Source: Myxococcota bacterium
Lineage (GTDB): Bacteria; Myxococcota_A; UBA796; CAJQPC01
Direction: 5' to 3'
DNA: 64,000 nt
NCBI GenBank assembly: GCA_036012755.1
Contig: DASCPX010000027.1
Coordinates: forward strand, 224,001-288,000
In this document: positions 27,001 through 33,000 of the stretch, one piece after another
How positions within the stretch are numbered: position 1 is the stretch's first letter
Layout of the letters: every line of letters begins with the position of its first letter
Program-made: the position numbers

Positions 27001-30000
27001 ATGGGGCCCGAGGCGGTCGAGGAGACGGTGAAGCCGATGGTGAAGGGCTGGCTCGGGCTCACCTGAGCCAGGCGAGGTCTGCGAGGGCCCCTGAGTGAGT
27101 CAGGTCCGCGCTCAGCGGCGTGACGGTCGCGTAGCCCTGCTGGCAGAGCGGTCCGTCGCTCCCCTGGATGGGAGCAAAGCTGCTGTGTGTGCCCCCGATC
27201 CAATAGTAGGGCCTCCCGCGTGGGTCCTCACGCGCATCGACGAGGGGCTCGTACTCACGGATGCCCAGCCGCGCTGGCACGATGCCTCGGAGGTCGTCCC
27301 ATGCCCGATCGGGCACGTTCACGTTGAGCACCGTCCGGGGCTCGCTGCCGTGGGCCAGCACACCCTCGACGACCTGCTTTGCCACGACGGCGGCGGTGTC
27401 GAAGTGGAGCAGGTCCTTCGGGGTGCCGGGTTGGAAGTACAGGGAGATCGCCAGGCTGGGCAGGCCGAGCAGCGCGCCCTCCATCGCCGCTGCCACCGTG
27501 CCGCTGTAGAGCACGTCATTGCCGAGGTTGGCGCCACGGTTGATACCGGAGACCACCACGTCCGGGGGCTGCGGCATCAGGTGGTGGATCCCGAGGTACA
27601 CGGAGTCGGCGGGAGTCCCGGAGACAGAGAACCACCGCGGGCGCTGCTCGGTAGCCCTCAGGGGCTTGTGCATCGTCAGCGCGTGCGATCGCGCGGACTG
27701 CTCGCGCTCCGGAGCGACCACCCAGACCTCGCCCAGCTCCGAGAGGACCTCTGCGAGGGGTGGGAGGCCGCGAGCGTAGAAGCCATCATCGTTTGCGAGG
27801 AGTATCCGCATGCCCTGGCGGACTAGCACGGGATCCGGCGTGGCGCTCGCGCCCTCTTCTGGGTAGGAAAGTCGCGGGAGCGGACCACTATGCGTCCCTA
27901 CATTGCGGACCTGTTCCGTCGCATGCGAGACCCGGATCCACGCGAGCAGGATGCGGCCTTCGACGCCGTCCTCTTCGAGCGGGAGAGAGCGGTCCCCGAT
28001 CTCGTCGCTGCCTACGTGCAGTTCGAGCAGGACACGCTCCTGCGCTTCTTTGCCGTGCAGCTCCTTGGCTTCTCCGGGTCTCCGGACGCCGTCGCGCTGC
28101 TCGTCACGGCGCTGGACGACGTGGACCCGATCATCCGGGCAGAGGCCTGCCGCTCGCTCGAGGACCTCCGCGCCACAGACGCCATCGCCGTTCTCCGTGC
28201 TCGGCTCCAGGACGTCGACGCCAACGTGCGTGAGGCCGCCCGGGAGGCGCTGTCGGCCCTGGGGCGCTAGCGCTGCTGGCCTGCGTGGAGCGTGGAGACA
28301 CCTCCCATTTCGTAGCCGCCGCAGAGGCCACTGATCTGACGACTGCGGCCGCTGCTTGCGGGCGTATCGACGAGGACAGCCTCAGGGGGGAGTGCGCGAG
28401 CCACGTCGTCCGGGAGCTGGGCTCCGAGGACATCGAGGCCGCAGCCGAAGCCTGCGAGGTCGCCTCCGGGGCGTGGCGGGACGAGTGCCTCTTCGTCCTC
28501 GCCGAGATCGACCCGAGCCCCGCCGCGGACTCAGCCCGCTGGTGCCGCCAGGCCGGGCGCTACACCATCAGCTGTCTCATGCACCTCTGGCAGGGCGAGG
28601 CCGCAAGCCTCAAGCGAGAACACCCGATGGAGGAGGCGGTCCAGCGCTACGCAGAGGCCCTGGCGTGGGCTGGAGAGGACCTCGACGACACCCTCACCCG
28701 CCGGGCCTGGGGGCTGTTCTACCGGACCGAGCTCGACCCGGCGCGCCCCCTCGACACCTCCTCGTGCGCGGCGTTGCCCGAGCCTCACCCGCGCTACTGC
28801 CGAGCCGGGACGCAGGAGGCGCTGGGCCGTGGGCTCAACGTCTGGGTTCGGGCCAACGGCCCGGCGGCGCTCATGCAGGCGTGCGGGCTCCCCGACGACG
28901 TCTCGCGCGCCGAGGCCATCGGCCGCATCACCGGCCTCACCTACGAGCCCGCGGGGGGCCTCGACGCCATCGCCTCCGAGCAGCTGGCAAGCCACTGTGA
29001 AAGAGGACCCTAAGTGATCCGAGGGGTACGGCATTGGGCCGGACCGAGGAGGTCACTCCGAGGAGGCTCGAACCTGGCGCGCTGACGCCGGCCAGAGACG
29101 CTCACCGGAGGGATGATGAACACGAGCTGATGGAGAGCCCATGATCACGGGCTCTACAAGGGCCTTCGATCCATTCGCCCGCCGGAGCCTTCGCCAGGCT
29201 CTGGAGCGGGTCCGTACGTCTACGCGAAGACTGAGTAGCGGTGAGCGCATCACCAAGGCGGCCGACGACGCCGCTGGACTCGCGATCGCGGAGGGGTTGG
29301 ACTCGCGCGCGCGAAGCCGCAGAGCCGCGATTGGCAACATCGGGGACGGGATGAATGCGCTCGCGGTGGCAGACAGCGGGCTCTCGGAGATCGCCGACCT
29401 CCTCAAGCGCGCGCGGGAGCTCGCGATCCAGGCCGCCTCCGGTGCCCTCGACGGCCCCTCGAGAGCGCTGGTGCAGCAGGAGTTCGATGCGACCTTGGAC
29501 TCGATCGACCACGTCGCCTACTCGACGATGTGGGGCAACCGCCCGCTGTTGTCCAAGCCACAGGTGGACGTCGGCCTCATCGTCGATGTCTCCGGCTCGA
29601 TGGGCGGTGAGATCGCCCAGGTCAAGGCATCGATCTCCAGCTTCGTCAGTGACATCTCCGCCTTCGACCTGGACGCCGGCCTCGGCCTCGCCGAGATGGG
29701 ACCCGACTCGATCGACGGCGTGAAGCTGGAGGCGGCCGTAGCGGATCCGGACTTCGACGATGCCCTCGATGACCTCGACATCTGGGGTGTGAGCCCGATG
29801 GATCCCTACAGCGCGCTCCTGAACGCCTCTGGAGTCTCGGATCTGCCTGGAGAGAACGACCCGGACAGCTTCGCCTGGCGTCCTGGCGCTCAGCGGAAGG
29901 TGCTGGTCCTCATCACCGACACTGGGCGGGAGGCCAAGTACATCTCGACCTCTGAGAGCGCGGTCGCCACCAAGCTCGAGAAGGCCGGGATCGAAGTCCA

Positions 30001-33000
30001 CACCATCAACCCAGGGAGCAAGAACTCGACCTTCGATGACATCGCGTCGCAGACCGGGGGCTCCGTCTGGGACATCGGGGGCAGCACCGGCAGCGGCATC
30101 CCGGCGGCGCTGGCCGGCATCGCGGCGACCTTCGCCGACGAAGACGGCCTGCAGGAGATGGAGATCCAGGTGGATCCCACCAGCGGCATCGCCGGCCGCA
30201 TCGCCGTGGCAGCGCCGGTAGACTCGACCATGAGAGGCCTGGGAGTCGACGAGCTCGACGTCAGCACGGTCTCTGGCGCGACAGGCGCCCTGGACACGAT
30301 CGACTCGGCGCTCGACACCGTGAACTCGGCGCGGGCAGCCGTGGGCGCGAGCCACAACCGCCTCGAGCACGCCCTCTCCTACGAGGAGGGTGCGCTGGTC
30401 CAAGACGAGGCCAGCGAGTCCCGCATCCGCGACGCTGACATGGCCCGAGAAGCCGCCGAGTCGGCCAAGGCCCAGATCCTCGCCCAGACGACGACGACGC
30501 TGATGGCCCAGCTGCGCCGCGCCCACCGCGAGACGCTGACGACCCTGCTGTCCTGATCACGGCAGGGCGACGGACCCCGCCAACCGTGTGGCTGGCGGGG
30601 CGTCATGGTCGGGGCGACTGGATTCAACCGGCCATCGCATGGCAGCGACGGACCCCGCCAACCGTGTGGCTGGCGGGGCGTCATGGTCGGGGCGACTGGA
30701 TTCGAACCAGCGACCACTTGACCCCCAGTCAAGTGCGCTACCAGACTGCGCTACGCCCCGTCAGAAGCCCACGAGAGGTATCCACCCCCCACTCCCGGGT
30801 CAAATCGGGCCGAGGCCCGCGACGTCGGCCTTCAGGCGCGCGAGACCGTCGCGCAGTTCCTGCAAGCGGCTAGCTGCCTCGCGGAGCTTGTCCAGCTCGA
30901 CCGCCGAGTCCGTGCTCGAGCTGGCTCCGCCCCCGCTCAGTGCCTTGCGAGCACCGGCGATCGTGAAGCCCTGCGCGTGGAGCAGCTTGCGGATCCGGAG
31001 GAACCTCGCGATGTCCTTCTTGCGATAGAGGCGCTGCCCGCTGCTCGACCGGTGCGGTCGCATGCGGAACTCCCCCTCCCAGTATCGGAGGACGTGCGGC
31101 TCCACTCCCACGAGCTCGGCGACCTCGCCGATGCGGAAGTAGAGCTTGTCGGGAATCCCGGAGGTCTCGCTCACGCGATCACGCCGTTGTCGGCCTCGCC
31201 GTTGAGCGCAGCCTTGAGCACCTGGCTCGGCTTGAACGTGAGCACCTTGCGCGCGCTGATCACGATGGTCTCGTTGGTCTGCGGGTTTCGACCCTTGCGC
31301 GCGGCCTTGCGGCGCACCACGAAGTTGCCGAAGCCGGAGATCTTGATCTTGTCCCCGGACTCGAGCGCCTGCTTCATCTCCTCGAAGACGGCCTCGACGA
31401 TCTCGGCCGCCTCCTTCTTGGAGAAACCCACGTTCTCGTAGATGCGCTCGACCAGATCGGCCTTCGTCATCGTTCGGCTCGCGTTGGTGGTGGTGGGCAA
31501 CGTTTTTCCTTCCGTTTCGCGGGTTTCGCTCGCTTTCGAGAAAGCGGGTCCGATACTATCGCAAGTGCTCAGTCGCCGGTATCACCAGAGCCTTCCGCTC
31601 CCGGATCCGTATCACCGACGACGTCCAACAGTTCGACAGCAAGGGTGTCGGTGCGGATCTCGCCATCGGTCGCGAAGGACTCGATCTCGAGCACCCAGAT
31701 CGACTCGTCGAAGGCGTCCTGGGACAGGCTGAACTCCACAGCCTCGCGCCCGTCCGCCCTCGCGATGACGCGCACGAGGTCGACCTGATCCGCGTAGTCC
31801 GCGTCGACCACCACGCTCACCGTGTGGGTGGTGCCCGCCGGTCCGCCTCCGGGGTCAGCCGTGGCGCTGCCAACGACGACCGCTCCGGTGTTCGAGGAGA
31901 GCTCGGTGCTGACGCTGTCGAGCAGGTCGTCGACGCCGACCTCGATGCTCAGCAAGTCGGTCCCGTTGATCTGCTCGTACTCCACCTCGGCCTCGTCGCA
32001 GGTGGTCGCGACCAGCGGCAACAGGCACAAGCCGAGGAGGCCCCGGCGCCTCACCAGTTCCCTCTGGCGCAAGTCCCGAGGGGCACTACAGTGCGGCCTT
32101 CGCCTTCTCGACCACGGCGCCGAAGGCCGCGGGATCGTGGAGCGCGAGGGCGGCGAGCGCCTTGCGGTCGAGCTCGACGCCGGCCGCCTTCAGGCCGTGG
32201 ATGAAGCGGCTGTACTTCAGCTCATGGGGCGTCAGCGCGGCGTTGATGCGAGTGATCCAGAGCCGGCGGAACTGGCGCTTCTTCTCCTTGCGCCCGCGGA
32301 AAGCGTATGCCTCTGCCTTGAGGACGGCCTCTGTTGCCTGCCGGAAGTTGCTGCGACCGCCGAAGAAGCCCTTGGCGCGCTTCTTGAGCTTCTTGACGCG
32401 GGTCTTGCGGATCGAGGCGTTGCTGACGCGTGCCATGGAGTGTTCCTCTTTGGTGACCGCTTCCCAGCCCCCAACTCGAAGAGCTGGGGCGCGGTGGCGG
32501 TGAGGGTGGGGGTGCGCGAGACTGCCCCGCGCGTGGCCGGATGGCTACTTGTAGGGGATCAGCAGATCGAAGAGGTGCCGTTCCTGCTTCGAGATGAAGG
32601 TCGGGCGGCGAGCCTTGCGCTTCCACTTCGTGGACTTCTTGGTCAGGATGTGGCGCATCTTCGAGCGCTTGAACTTGACCTTGCCGGAGGCGGTCTTCTT
32701 GAAGCGCTTGGCCGCGCCCCTGTTCGTCTTCATCTTGGGCATCTGAAACTCTAGAAAGAGTGGACCCGCGCGATTAACCCTTCTTCTTGATGGGGGCGAG
32801 GATCATCACCATGAGCCGGCCGTCCATGCGGGGCTGCTGTTCGATGAGTCCCACGTCCTGGACCGATTCGTGGACCCTCAGGCACTGCTTGGCGCCGATG
32901 TCCCGGTGGGCCATCTCCCGCCCGCGGAAGCGAACGGAGACCTTGACCTTGTCTCCGGCTTCCAGGAAGCGTCGAGTGTGCCTGCTCTTCACGTCGAAGT

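What a model noticed while it worked through the whole genome (the two positions that open the first line are those of the whole stretch)
29141..30556. Flagellin with an integrin-beta-I-like (VWA/MIDAS) domain in place of the outer domains
g01111 (471 aa) has the N- and C-terminal coiled-coil D0/D1 helices of a flagellin, but its variable middle (res. ~140-375) is a von Willebrand A domain with an intact metal-ion-dependent adhesion site (D149-x-S151-x-S153 ... T259-D260). I read it as a flagellin that decorates the filament surface with thousands of integrin-like, cation-dependent ligand-binding sites, i.e. an adhesive flagellum for attachment to a host, prey or particle surface. A MIDAS adhesin built into flagellin has not been described as far as I could search; it would add a new function to 'enzymatic/functional' flagellin inserts.
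Evidence so far: Pfam: Flagellin_N 13-139 (E 1e-25), VWA 143-303 (E 4e-7), Flagellin_C 384-462 (E 5e-15). 30 non-redundant homologues of 422-509 aa match the insert at 39-82% identity; all carry PF00669 and all but one PF00700; in an alignment of 29 of them with g01111, D149, S151, S153, D260 are invariant and T259 >=90%. AlphaFold model (30-row alignment) mean pLDDT 85: long N/C helices 11-128 and 377-470, alpha/beta domain between. PDB fold search: the helices match flagellar-filament flagellins (Leptospira, Shewanella, E. coli cores, TM to target 0.75-0.79), the insert matches integrin beta-subunit beta-I domains (alphaVbeta8, alpha5beta1, alphaIIbbeta3; ~250 aligned columns, rmsd 4-6 A, E 3e-7 to 3e-6). 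[...]
(Added by a program. Inside this text positions count along the whole contig: contig position 224,001 is position 1 of the stretch shown here. "Call 12" and the like, gene names such as g00115 and contig names such as C1 are that model's own, and its searches are not shown. The text may have been shortened before it was handed on; [...] marks where a part breaks off. The agent that wrote the report below was given it as the finding of a first reader that could run no searches.)

Follow-up and report, generated by a model that had tools for sequence, protein, structure and literature searches.

The report
Flagellin carrying a metal-binding VWA domain
This gene of an uncultured marine bacterium encodes a flagellar filament-type protein with a complete metal-binding von Willebrand A domain spliced into its outer face; the design was already counted in published surveys and occurs in cultured Clostridium and Bacillus relatives, but what it does has not been tested.

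Summary
ORF 29141-30556 (+) encodes a 471-aa protein with Flagellin_N, VWA and Flagellin_C domains. The D-x-S-x-S...D metal site is conserved across the family.

- The VWA domain spans residues ~141-335. It sits in the loop before the D1 beta-hairpin, not at the classical D2/D3 site.
- Its fold is generic VWA, not specifically integrin beta-I.
- T259 is not the classical MIDAS threonine; D221 is the better candidate.

The family is large and crosses phyla: 96 stored sequences, including Clostridium, Ureibacillus and Sporolactobacillus.

Evidence for a real flagellar role:
- All 14 carriers among 401 genomes sampled from the phylum have FliD.
- The C-terminus is modelled to bind the genome's own FliS.
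- The insert is almost free of cysteine.
- It shares a promoter-like motif with a canonical flagellin.
- 3 of 7 low-GC loci lie in flagellar clusters.

Incorporation into the filament and adhesion remain inferred.

The design is not new. Eckhard 2017 Table 1 counts 21 vWFA flagellins, and a Fields 2024 supplement lists 22. This scan has also met the design before, on other DNA. The gene is a new member of a catalogued but unstudied class.

The parts
29141..30556 (+). VWA-flagellin gene, 471 aa, no cysteine, no hydrophobic N-terminal signal
   Evidence: sequence read directly
29141..29557 (+). N-terminal D0 and ND1 helices (residues 1-139). The first ~27 residues are divergent; residues 28-139 carry the flagellin signatures (LSSGxRIxxAADDAAG, RNxxDG, RELAxQ)
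   Evidence: Pfam Flagellin_N 13-139; alignment with the genome's own flagellins; conservation by region
29561..30145 (+). VWA domain (residues ~141-335), inserted where canonical short flagellins have a loop of about 6 residues (their residues ~138-144)
   Evidence: Pfam VWA; insert-only model pLDDT 82.1; VIA-align Z 19.6 to 4wfq_A and 19.4 to 4fx5_A; collinear alignment of the flanks
29585..29599 (+). MIDAS motif D149-V-S151-G-S153. Further candidate metal ligands are D221 and D260
   Evidence: Invariant in 30 rows. In 96 rows: D149 94, S151 82 (+6 T), S153 84 (+4 T), D221 85, D260 87
30146..30268 (+). Flagellin D1 beta-hairpin segment (residues 336-376; EIQVD...RIAVA...GLGVDELDVST)
   Evidence: Aligns collinearly with residues 144-185 of the genome's own canonical flagellins; strands 340-343 and 353-356 in the model
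30269..30556 (+). C-terminal CD1 and CD0 helices (residues 377-471) and stop codon. Residues 427-470 form the modelled FliS interface
   Evidence: Pfam Flagellin_C 384-462; complex model ipSAE 0.85 against best control 0.04
28999..29025 (+). Promoter-like element GAAAG-N13-ATCCGAGGG, 116 nt before the start codon. The same type of element stands before the canonical flagellin FliC1 and before canonical flagellins of related genomes
   Evidence: derived after the fact, inference only
29044..29066 (+). Two copies of CCGAGGAGG in the 5' leader, conserved in the related loci L008 and L016
   Evidence: function unknown
30567..30703 (.). Perfect 59-nt direct repeat (30567-30625 and 30645-30703). Each copy holds a hairpin and the last 20 nt of tRNA-Pro. 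The relative L008 has one copy
30684..30760 (-). tRNA-Pro (GGG), convergent with the flagellin gene

Best explanation
The gene encodes a paralogue of the filament protein flagellin. It keeps the D0/D1 helices and the D1 beta-hairpin, and carries a ~195-residue von Willebrand A domain looped out of the outer face of D1.

Proposed mechanism:
1. The gene is transcribed together with the late flagellar genes (inferred).
2. The protein is held by the chaperone FliS through its C-terminal helix (modelled).
3. It is exported unfolded through the flagellar type III apparatus (inferred).
4. It is built into the filament, which is made mainly of the two canonical 276/277-aa flagellins, as a minor or specialised subunit (inferred).
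5. The N- and C-termini of a VWA domain lie together on the face opposite the metal site (established knowledge of integrin I domains). The MIDAS (D149, S151, S153, probably D221, D260) would therefore point away from the filament.
6. With Mg2+ or Ca2+ from seawater bound, the MIDAS would complete its coordination with an acidic side chain of a ligand. The flagellum would then be a cation-dependent adhesive organelle for particles, prey or other cells (inferred; no ligand is known).
For: Flagellin identity:
- Pfam N and C domains.
- A profile of the family hits solved flagellins at E down to 4e-56.
- 39-41% identity to the genome's own flagellins over the aligned core.

VWA identity:
- Pfam score above the curated cut-off and fold Z 19.6.
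- The nearest non-flagellin relatives are multi-VWA proteins with LRR, Big or beta-helix domains, which also match PF00362.

Constraint on the insert:
- In the same 8 genomes, mean column consensus is 0.68 for the VWA part against 0.59-0.64 for the helices. The metal ligands are kept in 82-94 of 96 rows.

Links to the flagellum:
- The genome has a complete flagellar locus on contig C47, plus a hook-type protein on C112: FlhA, FliA-like sigma factor, FlgM, FlgH, FlgI, FlgK, FlgL, two flagellins, FliD, FliS, FliE, FliF, FliG, FliI.
- 14 of 401 genomes sampled from the phylum carry the insert. All 14 are among the 160 of 401 that have FliD.
- 9 of 10 other carrier genomes also have canonical flagellins.
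- FliS with residues 377-471 scores 0.85, best control 0.04. That mark was reached by 116 of 157 solved complexes and 2 of 215 mismatched pairs; the runs agree in >=85% of contacts and partner pLDDT is >=62. FliS-flagellin is a solved textbook pair, so the pass shows likeness rather than binding.
- Cysteine: 7 in 18,973 residues of flagellin-borne VWA domains, 48 in 9,689 residues of the non-flagellin relatives, and 0.0115 per residue in the proteome.
- An ATCCGAG(A/G)G element with an AA-rich -35-like box stands before this gene and before FliC1. These are 2 of only 6 such sites among 131 in the genome. The core TCCGAG(A/G)G also stands before canonical flagellins in 4 of 17 fetched loci from the other carrier genomes.
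- In the low-GC branch of the family, 3 of 7 annotated loci place the gene beside flaG-fliD-fliS, fliW or other flagellins.

Precedent: flagellinolysin shows that a flagellin with an inserted globular domain can be exported and assembled into a filament (Eckhard 2017; passages read).
Against: - In the window and in all 10 related high-G+C loci, no flagellar gene is adjacent (0 of 11).
- The first 27 residues are poorly conserved: 0.45 against 0.67 for canonical flagellins of the same genomes. They also lack the VNTN-type start of those flagellins.
- The helical core diverges faster than the canonical flagellins between the same pairs of genomes: 62 vs 81-84%, 51 vs 69%, 40 vs 60% identity. That fits a subunit that is not under the packing constraints of a major filament protein.
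- One carrier genome (G002) shows no other flagellin.
- Six of the 96 rows carry Q at 151, L at 153 and R at 260, the column tallies suggesting one small group that lost the site.
- VWA domains also work inside cells: TFIIH p44 and proteasome Rpn10 are among the best fold matches.
- There are no expression data and no ligand.
- Whether the insert fits the 11-protofilament lattice at this unusual site was not modelled.
- The promoter motif was derived after the fact and is seen before the VWA gene in only 2 of 11 loci.
Confidence: 0.5

Rival explanations
1. It is a secreted protein that does not polymerise. It uses the flagellar export apparatus and FliS only as a way out of the cell, and acts as a free or loosely attached VWA ligand-binding protein. 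This would resemble Campylobacter FlaC, which I recall and did not check here.
For: - Orphan position outside the flagellar locus.
- Divergent N-terminal 27 residues.
- Helical core evolves faster than in the canonical flagellins.
- A modelled FliS interface and cysteine depletion fit export as well as they fit assembly.
Against: - The full D0/D1 set is kept, including the beta-hairpin and CD0, with the flagellin signature motifs. That is more than export alone should need.
- The model superposes on filament-state flagellins at TM to target 0.76-0.80.
- Some low-GC members lie next to fliD/fliS and other flagellins.
Confidence: 0.2
2. It is a structural filament subunit rather than an adhesin. 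The VWA domains contact each other or neighbouring subunits through the metal site, forming a cation-locked outer layer. That layer would stiffen the filament, change its waveform or protect it in seawater rich in Mg2+ and Ca2+.
For: - The insert is conserved at least as well as the core, unlike typical hypervariable outer domains.
- Several acidic residues are invariant in the 30-row alignment (D192, D242, E264) and could serve as internal ligands.
- The DNA occurs in marine and seawater metagenomes: 14 runs hold at least a quarter of the sampled words, from 8 studies.
- Outer-domain contacts that alter motility are known for other flagellins (recalled, not checked here).
Against: - If it is a minor subunit among two canonical flagellins, neighbouring VWA domains would seldom touch.
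- No self-association was modelled.
- The nearest relatives of the insert are in adhesin-like multi-domain proteins.
Confidence: 0.15
3. It is a specialised junction or cap-proximal protein, a paralogue in the manner of FlgL, present in a few copies at one end of the filament.
For: - One source names a family member 'flagellin-like hook-associated protein FlgL'.
- The same type of VWA insert occurs in FlgK-like proteins P0225 and P0228.
- It is a single-copy orphan gene.
Against: - The NCBIfam FlgL model scores 89.5 bits against a cut-off of 127.2, while flagellin models score up to 157 bits.
- A separate FlgL gene follows FlgK in the genome's own flagellar locus.
- Flagellin_C is present, whereas the genome's FlgL matches Flagellin_N only.
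Confidence: 0.08
4. It has no flagellar role: an intracellular VWA protein with a flagellin-derived coiled coil, or a decaying relic.
For: - No flagellar neighbours.
- VWA folds also occur in intracellular complexes.
- No RNA evidence.
Against: - The frame is intact in 96 sequences across phyla and the metal site is conserved.
- All 14 carriers in the phylum sample have FliD, against 160 of 401 genomes overall.
- Cysteine depletion.
- Flagellar-cluster context in 3 of 7 low-GC loci.
Confidence: 0.05

Closest known systems
vWFA-containing flagellins already catalogued. Eckhard et al. 2017, Nat Commun 8:521, Table 1, row 8, frequency 21 (table read). Fields et al. 2024, Nat Commun 15:9500, supplementary file 2, clusters 146, 164, 192, 423, 587 and 606, 22 UniProt entries (rows read). 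Named Firmicutes members: Clostridium kluyveri, C. ljungdahlii, C. beijerinckii, Sporolactobacillus, Ureibacillus, Psychrobacillus, Evansella
   Same: - Same Flagellin_N / VWA / Flagellin_C layout.
- The low-GC member P0139 was found with the profile of this gene's insert (E 1.2e-12).
- The low-GC consensus has the same insertion point, after '...FNTIKLL' and before 'LQVGAN...'.
- The same kind of metal motif is kept.
   Different: - This gene belongs to a high-G+C marine lineage; two family members are labelled Myxococcota by NCBI.
- It lies among housekeeping genes, not in a flagellar cluster.
- Its N-terminus is divergent.
- Neither paper discusses the VWA class. The main text of Fields 2024 has no occurrence of VWA, Willebrand or integrin.
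Flagellinolysin FliA(H) of Clostridium haemolyticum (Eckhard et al. 2017; abstract and passages read)
   Same: A flagellin with a folded functional domain between the N- and C-terminal helices. It is exported, co-assembled with a plain structural flagellin and displayed on the filament surface. It gives the working model for how this protein would act.
   Different: - The insert there is a zinc metallopeptidase in the hypervariable region, and its activity was shown by experiment.
- Here the insert is a non-enzymatic VWA/MIDAS domain at the pre-hairpin loop, and nothing has been tested.
VWA tip or minor subunits of pili: Mfa5 (6tnj), SpaC (6m48), PilB of Streptococcus sanguinis (7b7p), PitA (7w6b)
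   Same: - A MIDAS-type VWA domain carried on a bacterial filament as its adhesive part.
- Fold matches: Z 18.8, 17.0, 17.0 and 16.2.
- Mfa5 is also the best sequence match of the insert profile in the PDB, over the motif region only and weakly (E 0.021).
   Different: - Those sit on pili (type V, sortase-assembled or type IV), usually one copy per fibre.
- Here the carrier is a flagellin, which could be present in many copies along a rotating filament.
Integrin beta-I domain (PF00362; e.g. 8vs6_B, 6djp_B)
   Same: - VWA fold with a D-x-S-x-S metal site; Foldseek E 1.9e-7 to 1e-6; VIA Z 17-18.
- The domain is inserted into a loop of another domain.
- Relatives of the insert match PF00362.
   Different: - This protein has no PF00362 match at E<=0.1.
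- Other VWA classes score as high or higher.
- There is no hybrid domain and no alpha-subunit partner.
- ADMIDAS and SyMBS sites were not tested.

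Membership tests
Flagellin (PF00669 + PF00700) | N-terminal helical domain | tested here: met
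   Flagellin_N residues 13-139, E 4.3e-25, 88.8 bits against a cut-off of 26.6
Flagellin (PF00669 + PF00700) | C-terminal helical domain | tested here: met
   Flagellin_C residues 384-462, E 7.9e-15, 55.4 bits against a cut-off of 23
Flagellin (PF00669 + PF00700) | D1 beta-hairpin segment between ND1 and CD1 | tested here: met
   Residues 339-400 align collinearly with residues 144-205 of the genome's own flagellins
Flagellin (PF00669 + PF00700) | Conserved extreme N-terminus (export signal and D0 packing) | tested here: inconclusive
   A helix is predicted for residues 11-33 at pLDDT 73-75. Sequence conservation is low (0.45 against 0.67 in canonical flagellins), and the VNTN-type start of the canonical copies is absent
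Flagellin (PF00669 + PF00700) | Recognition by the chaperone FliS through the C-terminal helix | tested here: met
   The model supports binding: 0.85 against best control 0.04. It is a textbook pair, so the pass shows likeness, not binding
Flagellin (PF00669 + PF00700) | Polymerises into the filament | not testable with these tools
   Needs filament proteomics or cryo-EM
VWA domain with MIDAS (PF00092) | VWA profile match above the curated threshold | tested here: met
   30.5 bits against 23.8; 16 of 30 family members match at E<=0.01
VWA domain with MIDAS (PF00092) | Alpha/beta VWA fold | tested here: met
   Insert model pLDDT 82.1; Z 19.6, rmsd 2.5 over 175 residues to 4wfq_A; Z 19.4 to 4fx5_A
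VWA domain with MIDAS (PF00092) | D-x-S-x-S on the beta1-alpha1 loop | tested here: met
   D149, S151 and S153 are invariant in 30 rows; 94, 82 and 84 of 96 rows
VWA domain with MIDAS (PF00092) | Fourth ligand (Thr in alpha-I domains, Glu in beta-I) from the loop before the next helix | tested here: inconclusive
By its position before helix 222-230, the candidate is D221 (85 of 96 rows D, 7 S, 3 E). No coordinates were available to check the geometry.
VWA domain with MIDAS (PF00092) | Asp at the end of beta-4 | tested here: met
   D260 is invariant in 30 rows and present in 87 of 96
VWA domain with MIDAS (PF00092) | Binds a divalent cation and a ligand carboxylate | not testable with these tools
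   Needs biochemistry
Integrin beta-I domain (PF00362) | Profile match to Integrin_beta | tested here: not met
   No PF00362 match at E<=0.1 for this protein. Among the 30 members only one weak vWA_SIBA-E match was seen. Relatives outside the flagellins, and some Firmicutes flagellins, do match
Integrin beta-I domain (PF00362) | Fold closer to beta-I than to other VWA classes | tested here: inconclusive
   Beta-I chains score Z 16.8-18.1. TFIIH p44, bacterial VWA, the Pactolus I-domain, collagen VI and alpha-I domains score Z 18.5-19.6. Rows within 1 Z count as tied
Integrin beta-I domain (PF00362) | ADMIDAS and SyMBS auxiliary metal sites | not tested
   E157 (72 of 96 rows) lies where I recall an ADMIDAS aspartate; that is recollection only
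FlgL / hook-associated protein 3 (TIGR02550) | Equivalog score above the cut-off | tested here: not met
   89.5 bits against a cut-off of 127.2. A separate FlgL follows FlgK in the flagellar locus

The most novel reading that the evidence does not exclude
Flagellated marine relatives of the myxobacteria build VWA-flagellin into a rotating filament. The filament then carries many outward-facing, Mg2+/Ca2+-loaded MIDAS sites. It would work as a polyvalent, cation-gated grappling organelle for catching particles or prey cells.

The same VWA cassette has also entered another axial protein, FlgK. That would mean a mobile adhesion module has colonised the flagellar axial family at a previously unnoticed site, the loop before the D1 hairpin.
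Probability: 0.3. Interest if true: 0.75.

Novelty: new member of a known kind. Interest (0 to 1): 0.42.

Why it matters
If VWA-flagellins are assembled into filaments, the flagellum would carry a defined, metal-dependent binding module. Adhesion would then not rest only on charge or glycans. That would give 'functional flagellin inserts' a second class beside the proteolytic flagellins, and it would give a concrete handle on how swimming cells attach to particles, prey or hosts: the MIDAS site, EDTA and Mg2+ sensitivity, and point mutants.

Close family members exist in cultured Clostridium, Ureibacillus, Sporolactobacillus and related genera, so the question can be tested at the bench now. 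The non-canonical insertion site and the strong conservation of the insert are specific predictions for structural work.

Tried and rejected
- **Sequence searches of the insert against the PDB.** The single sequence and the 10-row profile gave nothing significant. The best hits were Mfa5 at E 0.021 over the motif only, and spurious HSP90 matches at E ~0.02-0.03.
- **RNA evidence.** No RNA holder is listed for the gene.
- **Classical promoters.** I looked by eye for a sigma-28 (TAAA-N15-GCCGATAA) or sigma-54 promoter before the gene and before the genome's own flagellins. No clear match was found in the own genome. Classical-looking sites appear only before flagellins of some other carriers (L027, L032, L033).
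- **Other sites with the ATCCGAG(A/G)G element.** Of the four other sites that also have a -35-like box, one had no downstream ORF by my criteria. The ORFs after the other three (four ORFs scanned) gave no Pfam match. The motif therefore cannot be tied to a wider flagellar regulon.
- **Synteny.** Only 1 of 10 related loci (L008) shares the window's neighbours. None of the 24 neighbour proteins scanned in the other loci was flagellar. Two recurring neighbours could not be connected to the flagellin: an STK-WD40 protein in L010-L012 and two FG-GAP proteins in L016.
- **Earlier notes of this scan.** Searches by place and by sequence returned nothing.
- **Literature.** Searches for a functional description of VWA/MIDAS flagellins returned only unrelated papers. 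The J Bacteriol 2025 hit mentions VWA proteins in a separate gene cluster, not in a flagellin.
- **Model coordinates.** They were not available to scripts. The geometry of the metal site and the orientation of the insert on D1 could not be measured.

Full report
**1. The observation**

The ORF at 29141-30556 (+) is real: 471 aa, ATG start, a GGAG-type ribosome-binding site a few bases upstream, and the codon-position G+C pattern of coding sequence in this 68% G+C genome.

- Pfam gives Flagellin_N 13-139 (E 4.3e-25), VWA 143-303 (E 5e-7, above the curated cut-off) and Flagellin_C 384-462 (E 7.9e-15).
- NCBIfam ranks flagellin models first, up to 157 bits and all below their equivalog cut-offs. 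FlgL scores 89.5 bits against a cut-off of 127.2.

**2. Anatomy**

I aligned the protein with the two canonical flagellins of the same genome (277 and 276 aa, in the flagellar locus).

- Residues ~101-138 match canonical 103-138.
- Residues 339-400 match canonical 144-205, collinearly. This stretch includes the D1 beta-hairpin motif (EIQVD...RIAVA...GLGVDELDVST against DVQVG...RITITL...LGIDTASLSLSS).
- The VWA domain (~141-335) therefore replaces a loop of about six residues before the hairpin.

As I recall the Salmonella FliC structure, the classical D2/D3 outer domains leave the chain after the hairpin. On that basis this is a different insertion site. The low-GC members of the family use the same site.

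A model of the insert alone (pLDDT 82.1) is a plain VWA fold. VIA-align against 48,161 chains gives:

| Match | Z |
|---|---|
| TFIIH p44 | 19.6 |
| A Catenulispora VWA protein | 19.4 |
| Pilus-tip protein Mfa5 | 18.8 |
| Integrin alpha-I and beta-I domains | 17-18.5 |

These are effectively tied. 'Integrin-beta-I-like' is thus too specific for this protein, which also has no PF00362 match at E<=0.1. Some relatives do match PF00362.

The metal site:
- D149-x-S151-x-S153 and D260 are invariant in 30 rows. They are kept in 94, 82, 84 and 87 of 96 rows.
- T259 is part of the usual beta-4 'TD' motif.
- By its position before helix 222-230, the likelier fourth ligand is D221 (85 of 96 rows).
- Six of the 96 rows carry Q at 151, L at 153 and R at 260. 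The tallies suggest one small group that lost the site, although I did not print which rows they are.

**3. Size and spread of the family**

A profile of the insert, run against 1.84 billion cluster representatives, gave 1,306 hits at E<=1e-3, 148 at <=1e-10 and 63 at <=1e-30.

Eight of them are cluster mates fetched, most of them near-identical to their representatives.

The nearest non-flagellin relatives are large multi-VWA proteins. They also match Integrin_beta, and some carry LRR, Big or beta-helix domains, a layout typical of surface adhesins.

The family includes low-GC members. Searching with one of them (P0139) returned 45 proteins. Among these are named flagellins of Clostridium kluyveri, C. 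ljungdahlii, C. beijerinckii, Sporolactobacillus, Ureibacillus, Psychrobacillus and Evansella. Two FlgK-like proteins with the same kind of insert also appeared.

On an unrooted tree of the concatenated N and C helices (115 rows), the 19 canonical flagellins of the carrier genomes lie on one side of a single branch (SH-aLRT 92) and all 96 VWA-flagellins lie on the other. This is compatible with one old insertion event but does not prove it.

**4. Is it a flagellar protein in this organism?**

The genome is 6.73 Mb, 96% complete, and is found in marine and seawater metagenomes. It has a full flagellar locus on contig C47: FlhA, a FliA-like sigma factor, FlgF/G, FlgA, FlgH, FlgI, FlgM, FlgK, FlgL, two flagellins, FliD, FliS, FlgB/C, FliE, FliF, FliG and FliI. 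A hook-type protein lies on C112.

The VWA-flagellin lies elsewhere, on C27, between surE / a HEAT-repeat gene / an unknown 242-aa gene on one side and tRNA-Pro / merR / ihfA / rplT / infC on the other. Only the closest relative, L008, shares that neighbourhood. None of the 24 neighbour proteins scanned in the other loci is flagellar.

Five further observations nevertheless tie the gene to the flagellum.

- (a) **Co-occurrence.** In a sample of 401 genomes from the phylum, 14 carry the insert. All 14 are among the 160 with FliD. Kin are not independent, so I give no p-value. Nine of the 10 carrier genomes reached through loci also hold canonical ~276-aa flagellins.
- (b) **FliS.** The genome's own FliS, modelled with residues 377-471, scores 0.85 against a best control of 0.04. 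The interface covers residues 427-470. FliS-flagellin complexes are solved, so the pass shows that the recognition helix is flagellin-like, not that this copy binds.
- (c) **Cysteine.** Flagellin-borne VWA domains have 7 cysteines in 18,973 residues. The homologous domains of non-flagellin proteins have 48 in 9,689. The proteome frequency is 0.0115. 68 of 96 family members, this one included, have no cysteine at all. I read this as adaptation of the insert to export in the unfolded state. That flagellins generally lack cysteine is my recollection.
- (d) **Promoter-like motif.** The element (T/G)AA(A/T)-N14-ATCCGAG(A/G)G stands 116 nt before this gene and 69 nt before FliC1. Only 6 of the 131 ATCCGAG(A/G)G sites in the genome have such a -35-like box. 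The core TCCGAG(A/G)G also stands before canonical flagellins in 4 of 17 loci from the other carriers and before the VWA gene of L008. The motif was found after the fact and is absent from the other 9 VWA loci, so it is weak support.
- (e) **Low-GC context.** I annotated 7 metagenome loci with a near-full-length match and usable flanks. These were chosen from 79 loci, of which 11 had full or near-full matches. Three place the gene in flagellar clusters: flaG-fliD-fliS-VWA flagellin in L040, next to a plain flagellin in L041, and flgL-fliW-flagellin-...-VWA flagellin in L048. The other four do not.

**5. What argues for caution**

- The helical core diverges faster than the canonical flagellins between the same genome pairs: 62 vs 81-84%, 51 vs 69%, 47 vs 70%, 46 vs 67% and 40 vs 60% identity.
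- The first 27 residues are the least conserved part, 0.45 against 0.67.
- The insert, in contrast, is conserved at least as well as the helices (0.68 against 0.59-0.64). That is the reverse of ordinary hypervariable outer domains and points to a constrained function of the VWA domain.

Together these features fit a minor or specialised subunit better than a major one. They leave room for a secreted, non-polymerising protein.

**6. Mechanism proposed**

| Step | Status |
|---|---|
| Late flagellar expression | inferred |
| FliS binding | modelled |
| Export through the flagellar type III apparatus | inferred from flagellin identity, absence of a signal peptide and cysteine depletion |
| Co-assembly with the two plain flagellins | inferred by analogy with flagellinolysin |
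| MIDAS face pointing outward | inferred, because the two ends of a VWA domain lie on the face opposite the metal site |
| Cation-dependent binding of a ligand carboxylate | inferred |

The rivals are a secreted non-filament protein, a cation-locked structural outer layer, a junction protein, and no flagellar role at all.

**7. Comparison with what is known, and novelty**

- Eckhard et al. 2017 list 'vWFA' as the eighth most frequent domain in flagellin hypervariable regions, with 21 sequences (Table 1, read). They pursue only the metallopeptidase class.
- Fields et al. 2024 list 22 UniProt flagellins with PF00092 in six structural clusters, in a supplementary table (rows read). The main text does not mention them.
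- Five literature searches found no functional study. That covers only the open-access library held here.
- Earlier notes of this scan report the same design on four other genomes. The lead to Eckhard's table came from those notes, and I checked it myself.

The gene is therefore a new, high-G+C marine member of a catalogued but unstudied class.

- the pre-hairpin insertion site;
- the conservation pattern (insert conserved at least as well as the core);
- the cysteine depletion;
- the strict co-occurrence with flagellar genes;
- the FliS model;
- a list of cultured relatives in which the question can be tested.

**8. Verdict**

- Novelty is modest; interest is moderate (0.42).
- The bold reading, a polyvalent cation-gated adhesive flagellum, is open at about 0.3.

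Noticed in passing
P0225 (702 aa) and P0228 (699 aa): FlgK-like hook-associated proteins (PF00460, PF06429, PF22638) carry the same kind of VWA domain. The cassette is therefore not confined to flagellin among the flagellar axial proteins.
   Followed up: no
window 30567-30625 and 30645-30703: A perfect 59-nt direct repeat lies just after the flagellin stop codon. Each copy contains a hairpin plus the last 20 nt of tRNA-Pro(GGG). The relative L008 has a single copy. It could be a small duplication, a footprint of an integrase acting at the tRNA, or an assembly artefact.
   Followed up: partly
window 29044-29066; also L008 and L016 upstream regions: Two copies of CCGAGGAGG, 14 nt apart start to start, in the 5' leader of the VWA-flagellin gene. 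The second copy recurs at a similar distance in L008 and L016, and the first is also conserved in the window-L008 alignment; the first copy in L016 is CCAAGGAG. It might be a site of translational control; not tested.
   Followed up: no
L010:3889-7452, L011:6836-10414, L012:2073-5615: In three related genomes the VWA-flagellin gene is followed on the same strand by a Ser/Thr kinase-WD40 protein of about 1,185 aa. In L010 and L011 a CxxCxxCC protein follows on the opposite strand.
   Followed up: no
L016:1896-5098: Two FG-GAP repeat proteins (the repeat type of integrin alpha propellers) lie directly upstream of the VWA-flagellin in one related genome. This may be coincidence.
   Followed up: no
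sample of the window's phylum: 160 of 401 sampled genomes of this phylum encode FliD. NCBI labels two carriers Myxococcota. Flagella therefore appear common in uncultured members of a phylum known for gliding.
   Followed up: partly
L048:5288-5776 (-): A LAGLIDADG homing-endonuclease ORF sits between a 537-aa flagellin and the VWA-flagellin in a low-GC metagenome contig.
   Followed up: no
G177 and G325: Two genomes of the phylum sample carry two VWA-flagellin-type genes each, on different contigs.
   Followed up: no
window 21957-23723 (+): An FHA-GAF-sigma54 activator, and a Ser/Thr kinase at 39646-41184 (-), lie in the neighbourhood. These are regulators typical of myxobacteria-like genomes. 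No link to the flagellin was seen.
   Followed up: no
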